This document shows positions 39,001 through 42,000 of a stretch of DNA of 64,000 bases, in pieces; position 1 is the stretch's first letter, and the number at the start of each line of letters is the position of its first letter. The stretch comes from Escherichia coli (lineage in GTDB: Bacteria; Pseudomonadota; Gammaproteobacteria; Enterobacterales; Enterobacteriaceae): assembly GCF_030013595.1 (NCBI RefSeq), contig NZ_CP122769.1, one strand, 5' to 3'. Position numbers: made by a program.

Positions 39001-42000
39001 GCACTGATGGTTAAAGCCGGAAGGATGACTCCTGATATATCTTCTCGTCCGGAAAATCCTGTCCTATTTATTGAGTGGTATCTGCTTAACTCATTGCGAG
39101 TAAAAGTCCTTCAGCAGGCAGGTCACAAAGAAACACTCGATCCGTTTTTTGACTATGCCCAAAAGATACTTTCTCCAGTAATTTCTGATGTTGAGGAAAT
39201 TTTTCATGATGCTCTTGGTTGTGAAAATACTCAGGGCTGTGAATCCCTTGCTCGTAAGACCCTGGCTCTTTTAGAGAGACTGCGGGATGAGGCAAGGGAA
39301 CAACAGCAGCAGACAGAGCAGGAGGAGCAGGAGGCATATGATGAATCCGAGACCGAGACCGATACCGATACCGATACCGAATCAGAAGATAAATCGCTTG
39401 AGTCGACTGATAGTCGTGAGGATGATTCTGAGGACGATAGTGAAGGTCAGGCAGATACTTCCGATAACTCTGATCTTGCTCAAGAGGGATGTTCTGAGCC
39501 TTCAGAACTTGCTGAAGATAACGAGGGAAATAATGAACCCACCGGTGGCAATCCCACAGGTGATAACATTATTGAAGACGATACTGATGCGATTAACCCT
39601 TCCGAGAGTGAATCAGATGAAGCCAGTTCGACTAACGTTGAAGATGAAAGTAACTTTTCATCGGCTCAATGGGAGATACTGGCAGATTTGTTGGATGCCT
39701 TTCTTGGCAGTGATGAGGATAGCGAAGATTATCACGATGCTTTGGCTAAAGAGATTGAAGGTATTGCATCAAAAGTATCCGATGACGTGAAAGCCGAATT
39801 CGGTGCTTCTGAATGGGATATCCCTGATCTCCTTATCGATTTGAATGTTTACAATGAGGCTTTGTCTCTGAGTCATTCAATCGGTAGCGACTTGTCTGTT
39901 TTACAGCAGGTTAAAATGCGTGGCCGAAACAAAACTCATGAGCGTGGAATTACCTTCGATGGAAATCGATTAATTCTGTCACCAATGGGAGTTCGTGATG
40001 TCTTCAGAGCTCAAAGCGAATCTAAAAATAGAGGGCATGTTGGCCTCGTATTAGTTCGTGATATTTCAGCGTCAATGGCTAATGATGAAAGATATATTCA
40101 TGCCATTAAGTCAGATCTTGCTTTATCGATGGCCGCTGAAAGTTTGTCAAAAATGCATGTCTCCAATATAGTCTTTCCCTTCAAGGAAAGTGAATTTGAG
40201 ATTATCAAAACGTTTGATCAAAGCGTTGAGGAATCTCTATCGAAATTCACTCTTGGATGTAAGGGTTATTATACCCCTACGGGATCGGCTTTAATGGCAG
40301 CTGTTGATCTGTTACTTGACAGCCAATTCGATAGGAAAATAATTTTTCTTATAACTGATGGTTATCCGAATAAATCGGAATTTACTATCGGCGAAGTTAT
40401 GGAAAAGGCTAAATGTAATGGAATAGAAATCGTTGGTGTTGGTATTAAGACTGATGAAATAATTGGTTTTGAAACGGACACTTTCGTAACAGTTGATGAT
40501 ACTTCTTTATTGTCTATTGAAGTCAGTAAGCTAGTTCATCAAATACTTTCTTAATAAACTCTACCCAATCGGGGCAAAAGGCCCCGGTGGGTCTTTTTGC
40601 TCCATGAAGGAATAAGGAGCAAAATATGACTCAGATAAAAACTTACCGTGTAGAACATGAAAAAGTCGGTGCGATGCATAAAGTCCGTATTTTCGGACGT
40701 GTTGGTGAAGTTATAAGCAATGATAGCCCTCAGGAAAGAATCTTCCGCGAAGTCACTATAGCGGAGGGTAATAGCCAGCAGGCTGCGTTACTTGTAGATA
40801 ACTACATACAGCGTCTTGAGAATAATGGCTTCACGACTGAAGCATAAATGTTGAGGGCCCCCGGGCCCTCTTTCTTAAATTCTGCGTTGTGGGTTTCTCC
40901 CTGTCTTCTGCACCGCAGAAGGCATTGAGAAACTCACAATGCCAGATAAGAGAGATCATCATGACTTATGCATCCCCGGCTCTTCGTCGTAATCCACAGG
41001 AAGTATCTGAACACTTTATTAAACTCGTTCATGCTCGAATTGCTGAAGTGTCTGGCTGGAAGTATATATTCGAAAGAATACCTGCTTTCAAAGACGCTTG
41101 TGCAAAAGCCCCGAGCCAGGTTCCTTGCCCGTTTACTGGCGCAGGGAAATCGAAGTTTCGTTTCCGACAAAAAGACCTTTATACCGGATGTGCGATCCAT
41201 AATGACTTTCCGGTAAATGAGTTTTGCGACGGAATTGATGTTCTGGCGAAATATTATGAATTAAGTAAAACGCAGACTTGCAAAAAGATTCTCTCAGATT
41301 TTTTCGGGATGGATCTGCATGCTCCGTTAACTGACGCCGACATTGAAAATGAACGACGCTATAAATCAGCAGTTCGTGCCACAGAAACTCTTGACCGAGA
41401 GGAAGTGGCAAAGCGAATGCGAAAACTTGATGTGATGTATCACTATACCGGTGAAATCAAGCCTAATACTCCTGTTGCTTTGTACCTCCGTAATCGTGGG
41501 ATCTCCCGCTTACTGAGTCACTTACCAAAGGATTTAGGCTTTAATAACCGGATCTACTATTGGGATAAAGATAAGCAGAAATCGATTATCTATCCGGGAA
41601 TGATTGCGATCTATCGTGACACCCGAGGTCGGCCTCTGACTATTCATAGAACATACGTAGACAAAAATGGTGATAAGGCACCTGTAGAAAATCCAAAGCT
41701 GATGATGAAGCCTCCTGCCGATATGACAGGTGGCTCAATTCAGTTGTTTGACCCTCACTATGATTCAGGTAGTTCGACCTGGACACTGGGAGTGGCTGAA
41801 GGGATCGAGAACGCGCTTTCTGTTGTAGAAGCGACTTCAACACCATGCTGGGCAGCCAGCTCCGCATGGTGCCTTGAAAACGTTACTGTTCCTGATTTTT
41901 TACTGCCTCCGCCGGATGTAAAATCTATAAACTTTTATATCTGGGCGGATAAGGATATTGCTAACTCACAAGGCACTCGTGCCGGTATTGAAGCTGCTCA

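What the first reader, a model, noticed from the sequence alone, without database searches (positions are those of the whole stretch)
39349..39378. Hexanucleotide tandem repeat inside the vWA gene
gagaccgagacc followed by gataccgataccgatacc encodes ETETDTDTDT. In-frame slippage of this repeat would change linker length without breaking the reading frame.
Basis: seen in the sequence. Interest (0 to 1): 0.15.

Follow-up and report, generated by a model that had tools for sequence, protein, structure and literature searches.

The report
Variable six-base repeat in plasmid linker
A short six-base repeat inside a conserved IncHI2 resistance-plasmid gene really does gain and lose whole units between plasmids, lengthening or shortening a floppy acidic linker by two amino acids at a time; it is an ordinary, probably harmless polymorphism.

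Summary
Window 39349-39378 is (GAGACC)2(GATACC)3, in frame in ORF 38536-40554 and encoding ETETDTDTDT. No shuffle came close to it.

The window is IncHI2 plasmid backbone. The gene encodes a CobT/NorD-like adaptor: an N-domain with HExxH, a disordered acidic linker of about 100 aa, and a C-terminal vWA/MIDAS domain. It follows a MoxR-class AAA+ gene and a DUF3150 gene.

Among about 1117 PLSDB plasmids the tract has 3-6 units, in six arrangements:
- EDD: 433, plus a few in the other lineage
- EDDD: about 477
- EEED: about 100
- EEDDD, the window's allele: 74
- EEDD: 10
- EEEDDD: at most 3

Every gene-length difference between sound assemblies maps to the tract, and the reading frame is always kept. 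The same length changes arose independently in two lineages about 1.3% apart.

More distant orthologues carry unrelated tandem repeats in the same linker. In Klebsiella IncFIB/IncHI1B plasmids, (SDD/SDG)n varies from about 9 to about 46 units.

Most likely this is replication slippage in a region constrained only in composition, and it is neutral or nearly so. It is not a phase-variation switch. Each major allele is carried by tens to hundreds of plasmids, so it could serve as a minor typing marker. Interest is low.

The parts
39347..39380 (+). Hexanucleotide tandem array. In codon register (39349-39378) it reads (GAGACC)2(GATACC)3 = ETETDTDTDT, aa 272-281. This is the polymorphic site.
   Evidence: Indels between plasmids map exactly here.
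38536..40554 (+). Gene for a 672-aa CobT/NorD-like vWA adaptor protein, annotated in RefSeq as 'VWA domain-containing protein' (WP_000762697.1).
38554..39354 (+). N-terminal helical domain (aa 7-273) carrying a conserved HExxH (H70-E71-A-G-H74).
   Evidence: pLDDT is mostly above 85. E71 is invariant and H70 and H74 are at least 90% conserved; phrog_1576.
39355..39648 (+). Coding region of the disordered acidic linker (aa 274-371). In the 118-aa stretch between conserved anchors there are 46 D+E and 3 K+R.
   Evidence: pLDDT below 50; composition and length across homologues.
39316..39334 (+). Second small in-frame repeat in the same low-complexity region (GAGCAGGAG x2.1, EQEEQE). It was invariant in all loci sampled.
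40033..40551 (+). C-terminal vWA/MIDAS domain (aa ~500-672), with DxSxS at D509-S513.
35905..36963 (+). MoxR-class AAA+ ATPase (AAA_5, CobS-like), the presumed motor partner.
   Evidence: PF07728, E=5e-28; weak TIGR01650 hit; phrog_249.
37319..38458 (+). DUF3150 protein encoded between the ATPase and the vWA gene.
   Evidence: PF11348, E=2e-23. The gene order is conserved in IncHI1 and Klebsiella plasmids.

Best explanation
The tract is a short, imperfect, coding microsatellite in the DNA that encodes a disordered, highly acidic linker. The linker joins the N-terminal HExxH domain to the C-terminal vWA/MIDAS domain of a CobT/NorD-like adaptor. That adaptor is encoded next to a MoxR-class AAA+ ATPase on the IncHI2 backbone. 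During replication the nascent and template strands occasionally mispair by one 6-bp unit, adding or removing one Glu-Thr or Asp-Thr dipeptide (inferred). The unit is two codons long, so the frame is always kept (shown). The linker is constrained only in being acidic and flexible, so these changes are tolerated and drift or hitch-hike with successful plasmid lineages (inferred). The rate is far above the point-mutation rate for that stretch. It is still low on an epidemiological time scale, since each major allele is carried by tens to hundreds of plasmids. The tract therefore behaves as a slowly evolving VNTR, not as a switch.
For: 1. Between sound assemblies of the gene, all length differences (2007, 2013, 2019 and 2025 bp) lie in the tract and are whole units. 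Records L003 and L012 also carry scattered 1-bp indels, read here as assembly errors.
2. Six unit arrangements are seen: EDD, EDDD, EEDD, EEED, EEDDD and EEEDDD. Approximate counts in 1117 PLSDB records are 433, 477, 10, 100, 74 and at most 3. In 275 E. coli RefSeq records, 25 carry five units and 235 carry four.
3. Within the E. coli/Salmonella lineage the 2-kb gene has at most one SNP outside the tract, yet all six arrangements occur.
4. Seven plasmids chosen to represent different alleles were compared over 25-40 kb of flank. The six ingroup plasmids differ from each other by only 4-27 SNPs but carry six different repeat states.
5. Changes recur independently. EDD in p15-0756 is 4 SNPs from EDDD pHNSHP45-2 and about 300 SNPs from EDD R478. 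EDDD in OW849078.1 keeps the R478-type SNPs at 39296 and 39400/39401, about 50 bp and about 20 bp from the two ends of the tract. This argues for de novo change rather than import.
6. AlphaFold2 predicts disorder over aa 274-371.
7. Across homologues the linker is 67-164 aa, always rich in D/E, unalignable in sequence, and built from unrelated tandem repeats in different branches. In Klebsiella plasmids a 9-bp (SDD/SDG) array ranges from about 9 to about 46 units, and gene spans from 1698 to 2040 bp all differ by multiples of 9.
8. In true CobT the roughly 90-residue linker between the N-domain and the vWA domain is disordered and invisible by cryo-EM (bioRxiv 10.64898/2026.07.21.739949).
Against: No direct measurement of slippage exists: no reads and no mutation-accumulation data. 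Same-length alleles (EDDD, EEDD, EEED) differ by G/T at single positions, so they could arise by substitution instead of unit turnover. Neutrality is inferred and untested, because no phenotype is known for the protein. The representatives used for the SNP comparison were picked because they differed at the repeat, which inflates the apparent ratio of repeat changes to SNPs.
Confidence: 0.85

Rival explanations
1. Linker length is functionally tuned. Copy-number variants alter the reach or charge of the tether between the N-domain and the MIDAS domain on the AAA+ ring, and are selected in different hosts or plasmid lineages.
For: Alleles correlate with lineage and host: EDD with Enterobacter-type plasmids, and EDDD and EEED with E. 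coli and Salmonella. Repeat-built linkers have evolved repeatedly in the family.
Against: The steps are only 2 aa in a linker of about 100 aa. Family-wide linker length ranges from 67 to 164 aa with the flanking domains conserved. The same alleles occur in both lineages and in many host genera. Lineage correlation is what hitch-hiking would produce anyway.
Confidence: 0.08
2. The alleles are spread by homologous recombination or gene conversion between co-resident IncHI2 plasmids, not generated repeatedly by slippage.
For: IncHI2 backbones do show some SNP homoplasy; for example, site 21100 conflicts with the tree.
Against: Rare alleles keep the lineage-specific SNPs close to both ends of the tract: 39296 is about 50 bp upstream and 39400/39401 about 20 bp downstream. 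States such as EEEDDD and EEDD still need a de novo origin. All changes are whole repeat units.
Confidence: 0.05
3. The copy-number differences are sequencing or assembly artefacts.
For: Some records are visibly error-prone. CP061234.1 and MN200941.1 carry scattered 1-bp homopolymer deletions in the gene.
Against: The tract is only 18-36 bp, well inside any read. Each of the major alleles is shared by 10 to nearly 500 independent assemblies from many laboratories and platforms. The erroneous records show 1-bp errors, not 6-bp ones.
Confidence: 0.02
4. The repeat is a phase-variation (contingency) switch or a cis-acting DNA site such as iterons or protein-binding repeats.
For: It is a tandem DNA repeat on a plasmid.
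Against: A 6-bp unit cannot shift the frame, and every sound allele keeps the ORF. The tract is short and stable within large clades. IncHI1 orthologues (68% identity) lack it entirely, and other branches carry unrelated repeats at the same protein position. Conservation is therefore of protein composition, not of a DNA motif.
Confidence: 0.01

Closest known systems
Coding-region microsatellites / VNTRs that vary by slipped-strand mispairing (in-frame repeat-length polymorphism in low-complexity protein segments)
   Same: Head-to-tail short units, change by whole units, homoplasy, frame preserved, and location in a disordered low-complexity segment.
   Different: The array is very short (3-6 units) and imperfect, with two unit types. 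It is therefore slow: each major allele is carried by tens to hundreds of plasmids. No link to surface antigens or adhesins, the classic bacterial examples.
CobT subunit of the aerobic cobaltochelatase CobNST, and BchD/ChlD of Mg-chelatase
   Same: The architecture matches: an N-terminal domain, a long disordered linker, and a C-terminal vWA/MIDAS domain, encoded next to a CobS-like AAA+ motor (bioRxiv 10.64898/2026.07.21.739949). Some homologues hit Pfam CobT_C.
   Different: Scores fall far below the family cutoffs: TIGR02442 33.8 bits against 779, and TIGR01650 34.4 against 558. No CobN or cobalamin genes appear in the neighbourhood; a DUF3150 gene and plasmid backbone genes are there instead. 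It is not a chelatase subunit by membership.
NorQ-NorD, CbbQ-CbbO, RavA-ViaA and the Rea1/Mdn1 MIDAS (MoxR-class AAA+ motor with a vWA/MIDAS adaptor)
   Same: The best structural matches of the C-domain are the Rea1/MDN1 MIDAS domain and NorD VWA in the NorQ-NorD complex. An adjacent AAA_5 ATPase is present. From my own knowledge, Rea1/Mdn1 also has a long D/E-rich unstructured region before its MIDAS domain.
   Different: The client or substrate is unknown. There is an extra N-terminal HExxH domain and a DUF3150 partner, in a plasmid-backbone context.
The MoxR-vWA module of MOBH-type conjugative elements (pCAR1 ORF100-103, R478, Rts1, SXT, R391), and the jumbo-phage MoxR-vWA pair with an N-terminal metallopeptidase
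   Same: PMC2642839 states that this gene block is conserved between pCAR1, R478, Rts1, SXT and R391, with a MoxR-like ATPase and a vWA protein. PMC7824862 describes phage vWA co-chaperones fused to an N-terminal metallopeptidase, which matches the HExxH N-domain here.
   Different: Neither paper mentions the linker or its repeat polymorphism. The function is unproven in every case.

Membership tests
Coding microsatellite/VNTR evolving by replication slippage | Three or more head-to-tail copies of a short unit, beyond chance | tested here: met
   TRF: period 6, 5.7 copies, 96% matches. None of 300, 2000 and 5000 shuffles reached the observed run.
Coding microsatellite/VNTR evolving by replication slippage | Copy number differs between otherwise near-identical sequences, always by whole units | tested here: met
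   3-6 units. Gene lengths are 2007, 2013, 2019 and 2025 bp with at most one SNP elsewhere within the lineage.
Coding microsatellite/VNTR evolving by replication slippage | Recurrent (homoplasious) changes on independent backgrounds | tested here: met
   EDD and EDDD each occur in both the R478-type and the E. coli-type lineage, with lineage SNPs retained close to the tract.
Coding microsatellite/VNTR evolving by replication slippage | Within-culture or within-read heterogeneity, or a measured slippage rate | not testable with these tools
   No read data or experiments are available.
Phase-variable contingency locus | A change in copy number toggles expression, by frameshift or by promoter spacing | tested here: not met
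   The unit is 6 bp and lies inside the ORF. Every allele in a sound assembly has an intact annotated CDS of 668-674 aa.
Phase-variable contingency locus | A long hypermutable tract that varies among close relatives | tested here: not met
   Only 3-6 units. Single alleles are shared by 74-477 plasmids.
vWA/MIDAS adaptor of a MoxR-class AAA+ ATPase | vWA fold with the MIDAS motif DxSxS...T...D | tested here: met
   PF00092 scores above its gathering cutoff. D509, S511, S513, T580 and D608 are invariant. Foldseek matches Rea1 MIDAS and NorD VWA at E of about 1e-7.
vWA/MIDAS adaptor of a MoxR-class AAA+ ATPase | A cognate AAA_5/MoxR ATPase encoded in the same operon | tested here: met
   ORF 35905-36963 matches PF07728 at E=5e-28. 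The same gene order is seen in the Klebsiella and IncHI1 orthologous loci.
vWA/MIDAS adaptor of a MoxR-class AAA+ ATPase | Physical interaction with the ATPase and remodelling of a client | not testable with these tools
   Needs biochemistry.
Cobaltochelatase CobT (true CobNST subunit) | Scores above the family model cutoff | tested here: not met
   TIGR02442 gives 33.8 bits against a cutoff of 779. The ATPase scores 34.4 bits against TIGR01650, cutoff 558.
Cobaltochelatase CobT (true CobNST subunit) | A CobN partner or a cobalamin-pathway context | tested here: not met
   The annotated neighbours are transfer genes, hypothetical genes, a toprim gene and a Tus-like gene. No cobN is present.
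Cobaltochelatase CobT (true CobNST subunit) | N-domain, disordered linker and vWA architecture | tested here: met
   compared with the CobT description in bioRxiv 10.64898/2026.07.21.739949.

The most novel reading that the evidence does not exclude
The acidic linker of this plasmid, ICE and phage MoxR-vWA adaptor family may be a deliberately evolvable 'accordion'. Unrelated tandem repeats have been recruited again and again at the same position: (ET/DT)n here, (SDD/SDG)n with about 9 to about 46 units in Klebsiella plasmids, (QQQDx)n, and 8- and 16-aa repeats elsewhere. On this reading, the length or charge of the tether is under diversifying or host-specific selection. It might set the reach between the metallopeptidase-like N-domain and the MIDAS domain on the AAA+ ring, or act as a polyanionic nucleic-acid mimic during plasmid establishment.
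Probability: 0.07. Interest if true: 0.5.

Novelty: new member of a known kind. Interest (0 to 1): 0.14.

Why it matters
On its own it matters little. It is a textbook in-frame microsatellite in a disordered linker of a protein of unknown function.

There are two modest uses. First, the tract is a ready-made length marker for subtyping IncHI plasmids, which carry mcr-1, mcr-9, blaCTX-M and blaNDM. This applies even more to the far more variable 9-bp array in the Klebsiella IncFIB(pNDM-Mar)/IncHI1B orthologue. The tract also explains why RefSeq holds several near-identical WP_ proteins for this gene.

Second, the flanking domains are conserved while linker length varies freely from 67 to 164 aa. 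Anyone studying the conserved MoxR-DUF3150-vWA module of MOBH elements can take from this that the linker acts as a flexible acidic tether whose exact length is not critical.

Tried and rejected
- I first reasoned that the EEED allele must show below 95% identity to the window allele, which made the counts seem inconsistent. A local BLAST showed that a gap-only alignment exists (125/131), which resolved it.
- PADLOC gave nothing for the vWA or DUF3150 proteins and only marginal hits for the ATPase. There is no support for a known defence system.
- Sequence search of the PDB gave only weak vWA hits. CobT structures were not retrieved by sequence.
- Literature searches on DUF3150, on IncHI2 with von Willebrand, and on IncHI2 with tandem repeat or pDLST found no description of this polymorphism.
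- I tried to confirm from PMC7355605 that the window allele corresponds to pDLST ST4. The accessions are not in the main text, so the idea that alleles track ST1-ST4 remains my recollection and is untested.
- Phase variation, an iteron or DNA-site role, and assembly artefact were considered and rejected; see the rival explanations.
- The overlapping ORFs 39086-39337 (-) and 39287-39790 (+, other frame) are mechanical ORFs inside the conserved gene. I did not pursue them.

Full report
**Observation**

Window 39349-39378 reads GAGACC GAGACC GATACC GATACC GATACC. Tandem Repeats Finder reports 39347-39380 with period 6, 5.7 copies and 96% matches. The tract lies in ORF 38536-40554 (+, 672 aa). The ORF start is exactly 271 codons upstream, so the tract encodes E272-T281 = ETETDTDTDT.

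The repeat is not a by-product of the acidic composition. Its period-6 self-match run, allowing one mismatch, is 28 positions. The maximum was 14 in 300 dinucleotide shuffles of the window, 17 in 2000 codon shuffles of the ORF, and 23 in 5000 codon shuffles of the linker codons alone.

**Context**

The gene is 100% identical to a 'VWA domain-containing protein' of E. coli plasmid pM160133_p1. That plasmid is typed IncHI2A, MOBH, MPF_F. The gene has more than 1100 near-identical copies in PLSDB, in Escherichia, Salmonella, Enterobacter, Klebsiella and other genera.

It lies downstream of trhU, trhN and trhI, in a conserved backbone block:
- an AAA_5 ATPase at 35905-36963 (PF07728, E=5e-28)
- a DUF3150 protein at 37319-38458
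- the vWA protein
- a small ORF
- a toprim/primase-like protein at 40889-42193

NCBIfam and PHROGs place the ATPase and the vWA protein weakly with CobS and CobT, far below the curated cutoffs. PADLOC finds nothing convincing.

**Protein architecture**

An AlphaFold2 model built on 26 homologues shows three parts:
- a confident helical N-domain, aa 7-273
- a segment with pLDDT below 50, aa 274-371
- a C-terminal α/β domain

The repeat sits at the junction between the long helix 232-273 and the disordered segment.

The C-domain matches the Rea1/MDN1 MIDAS domain and NorD VWA in the NorQ-NorD complex, at E of about 1e-7. The MIDAS residues D509, S511, S513, T580 and D608 are invariant in the alignment. 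The N-domain carries a conserved HExxH (aa 70-74).

This is the architecture recently described for CobT: an N-domain, a disordered linker of about 90 residues that is invisible in cryo-EM, and a vWA domain that docks on the CobS ring (bioRxiv 10.64898/2026.07.21.739949).

Two published observations fit. The block is conserved among pCAR1, R478, Rts1, SXT and R391 (PMC2642839). Jumbo phages have MoxR-vWA pairs in which the vWA protein carries an N-terminal metallopeptidase (PMC7824862). No function has been shown for the plasmid module.

It does. Write E for GAGACC (Glu-Thr) and D for GATACC (Asp-Thr).

Aligning genes of different lengths places every length difference between sound assemblies inside the tract:

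| Arrangement | Example | Gene length |
|---|---|---|
| EEDDD | the window | 2019 bp |
| EDDD | pWW012 | 2013 bp |
| EEDD, EEED | E9 p1; pR18.0450 | 2013 bp |
| EDD | pOSUKPC4, R478 | 2007 bp |
| EEEDDD | Serratia pQC11_1 | 2025 bp |

Two records with scattered 1-bp deletions (CP061234.1, MN200941.1) look like error-prone assemblies and were ignored.

Allele-specific BLAST queries against 1117 PLSDB records give these counts (alignment behaviour checked):

| Allele | Records |
|---|---|
| EDDD | about 477 |
| EDD on the R478/Enterobacter-type background | 433 |
| EEED | about 100 |
| EEDDD (the window's allele) | 74 |
| EEDD | 10 |
| EEEDDD | at most 3 |
| Off-lineage combinations | a handful |

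In 275 matching records of complete E. coli RefSeq genomes, 25 carry the window allele, 235 carry four units, and about 15 carry three.

**How fast, and by what route?**

Within the E. coli/Salmonella lineage the 2-kb gene has at most one SNP outside the tract, yet all six arrangements occur.

I compared 25-40 kb of flanking backbone in seven plasmids chosen to represent different alleles. The six ingroup plasmids differ from each other by only 4-27 SNPs. R478 is about 1.3% away.

Shared derived SNPs support three groupings:
- EDD p15-0756 groups with EDDD pHNSHP45-2, 4 SNPs apart. This is a contraction independent of R478's EDD.
- EEED is sister to EEEDDD.
- The window's EEDDD shares one derived site (32492) with the EDDD clade. 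One other site (21100) conflicts with this.

An EDDD allele on the Enterobacter-type background (OW849078.1) keeps the R478-type SNPs at 39296 and at 39400/39401, about 50 bp and about 20 bp from the two ends of the tract. This argues against import by recombination.

The tract therefore mutates much faster than the surrounding sequence, and does so recurrently. The sampled plasmids were picked for differing at the tract, so the ratio is biased upward. Each major allele is nevertheless shared by tens to hundreds of plasmids. This is a slow VNTR, not a hypermutable contingency tract. With a 6-bp unit it cannot switch the gene off.

**Family-wide picture**

tblastn finds two further groups of orthologues:
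- IncHI1-type orthologues at 68% identity, of uniform length (2007-bp match spans; the two fetched genes are 2013 bp). Their linker has diverged and they lack the hexamer repeat.
- Orthologues at about 35% identity in Klebsiella IncFIB/IncHI1B plasmids. Gene spans in 17 sampled rows range from 1698 to 2040 bp, and all differ by multiples of 9.

Fetching four of the Klebsiella genes shows a linker made almost entirely of a 9-bp (SDD/SDG) array. Unit number ranges from about 9 to about 46, and the proteins from 591 to 705 aa.

Across 26 homologues the segment between the conserved anchors is 67-164 aa. It is always rich in D/E and has few K/R. In different branches it is built from unrelated repeats:
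- (QQQDx)n, 67-152 aa
- (SDGDAEGE)n-like units
- a 16-aa unit in Shewanella
- a 43-aa insertion that distinguishes P0031 from P0030

The constraint is on composition and flexibility, not on sequence or exact length. The IncHI2 hexamer tract is a mild instance of a general property of this linker.

**Mechanism and verdict**

Shown:
- the repeat exists and is in frame
- whole-unit polymorphism occurs, with homoplasy
- the tract lies at the start of a predicted disordered acidic linker
- linker length is free across the family

Inferred:
- the changes arise by slipped-strand mispairing
- they are neutral or nearly so, and spread by hitch-hiking with plasmid lineages

Not testable here:
- heterogeneity among reads
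- any phenotype

The rivals are adaptive tuning of linker length, recombinational spread, artefact, and a phase-variation or DNA-site role. Each is weaker for the reasons given in the structured fields.

The finding is correct and ordinary. It is a new documented instance of a well-known kind of polymorphism, with small practical value as a plasmid typing marker. Interest is about 0.14.

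Noticed in passing
window 4060-7150: A large tandem array: a 249-bp unit x 12.6 copies at 73% matches (TRF score 2579). It lies in a stretch with no ORF of 100 aa or more, between ORFs ending at 3192 and starting at 7530, and GC is locally raised (0.49). 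Its nature is not established.
   Followed up: no
window 55267-55291 (inside the tyrosine recombinase gene 54981-56171, - strand): A second in-frame hexanucleotide repeat (TCTTCA x4) that is also polymorphic between IncHI2 plasmids. One 6-bp unit is absent from pHNSHP45-2, pR18.0450 and pQC11_1, and present in the window and in E9 p1. The annotated CDS is 1176 or 1182 bp accordingly. It is the same kind of event as the finding.
   Followed up: partly
L013-L016 (Klebsiella pneumoniae IncFIB/IncHI1B plasmids), linker of the orthologous vWA gene: A hypervariable 9-bp (SDD/SDG)n coding VNTR, from about 9 to about 46 units. At least 11 distinct gene lengths occur among 17 sampled records, all multiples of 9 apart. 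In some records the gene is annotated only in part (CP052269.1) or as two hypothetical proteins (OW968454.1). It is a potential typing marker.
   Followed up: partly
window 22542-25253: A 2712-bp IS66-family element (ORFs of 216, 115 and 523 aa; DDE_Tnp_IS66 at E=4e-104), flanked by an 8-bp direct repeat ATTTATCC. It is absent from the other IncHI2 plasmids compared. It interrupts the TrbC-family pilus-assembly gene (trhW), so transfer may be impaired.
   Followed up: partly
window 45662-47791: A 2130-bp IS21-family element (IstA-like 390 aa, IstB 266 aa), absent from the other IncHI2 plasmids compared. It is inserted in a backbone gene for a hypothetical protein.
   Followed up: partly
window ~18457 (rsp gene, 16532-20836): A 1-bp deletion relative to pHNSHP45-2 splits the 1434-aa IncHI conjugal-transfer protein RSP into ORFs 16532-18481 and 18487-20835. 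It is either a real frameshift or a sequencing error. RSP is reported to be required for IncHI conjugation (title of PMC6764697).
   Followed up: partly
window 38743-38757 (aa 70-74 of the vWA protein): An HExxH motif (CHEAGHGRYT) is conserved in orthologues down to 21% identity. This suggests a zincin-like metallopeptidase, or a degenerate M48-like domain as in CobT_N. Activity is untested.
   Followed up: partly
window 37306-37313 and ~50256: Single-base length differences relative to pHNSHP45-2. The one at 37306-37313 is in a T homopolymer (T7 against T8) just upstream of the DUF3150 gene start. The sequence context at ~50256 was not examined. Each could be real or a sequencing error.
   Followed up: no
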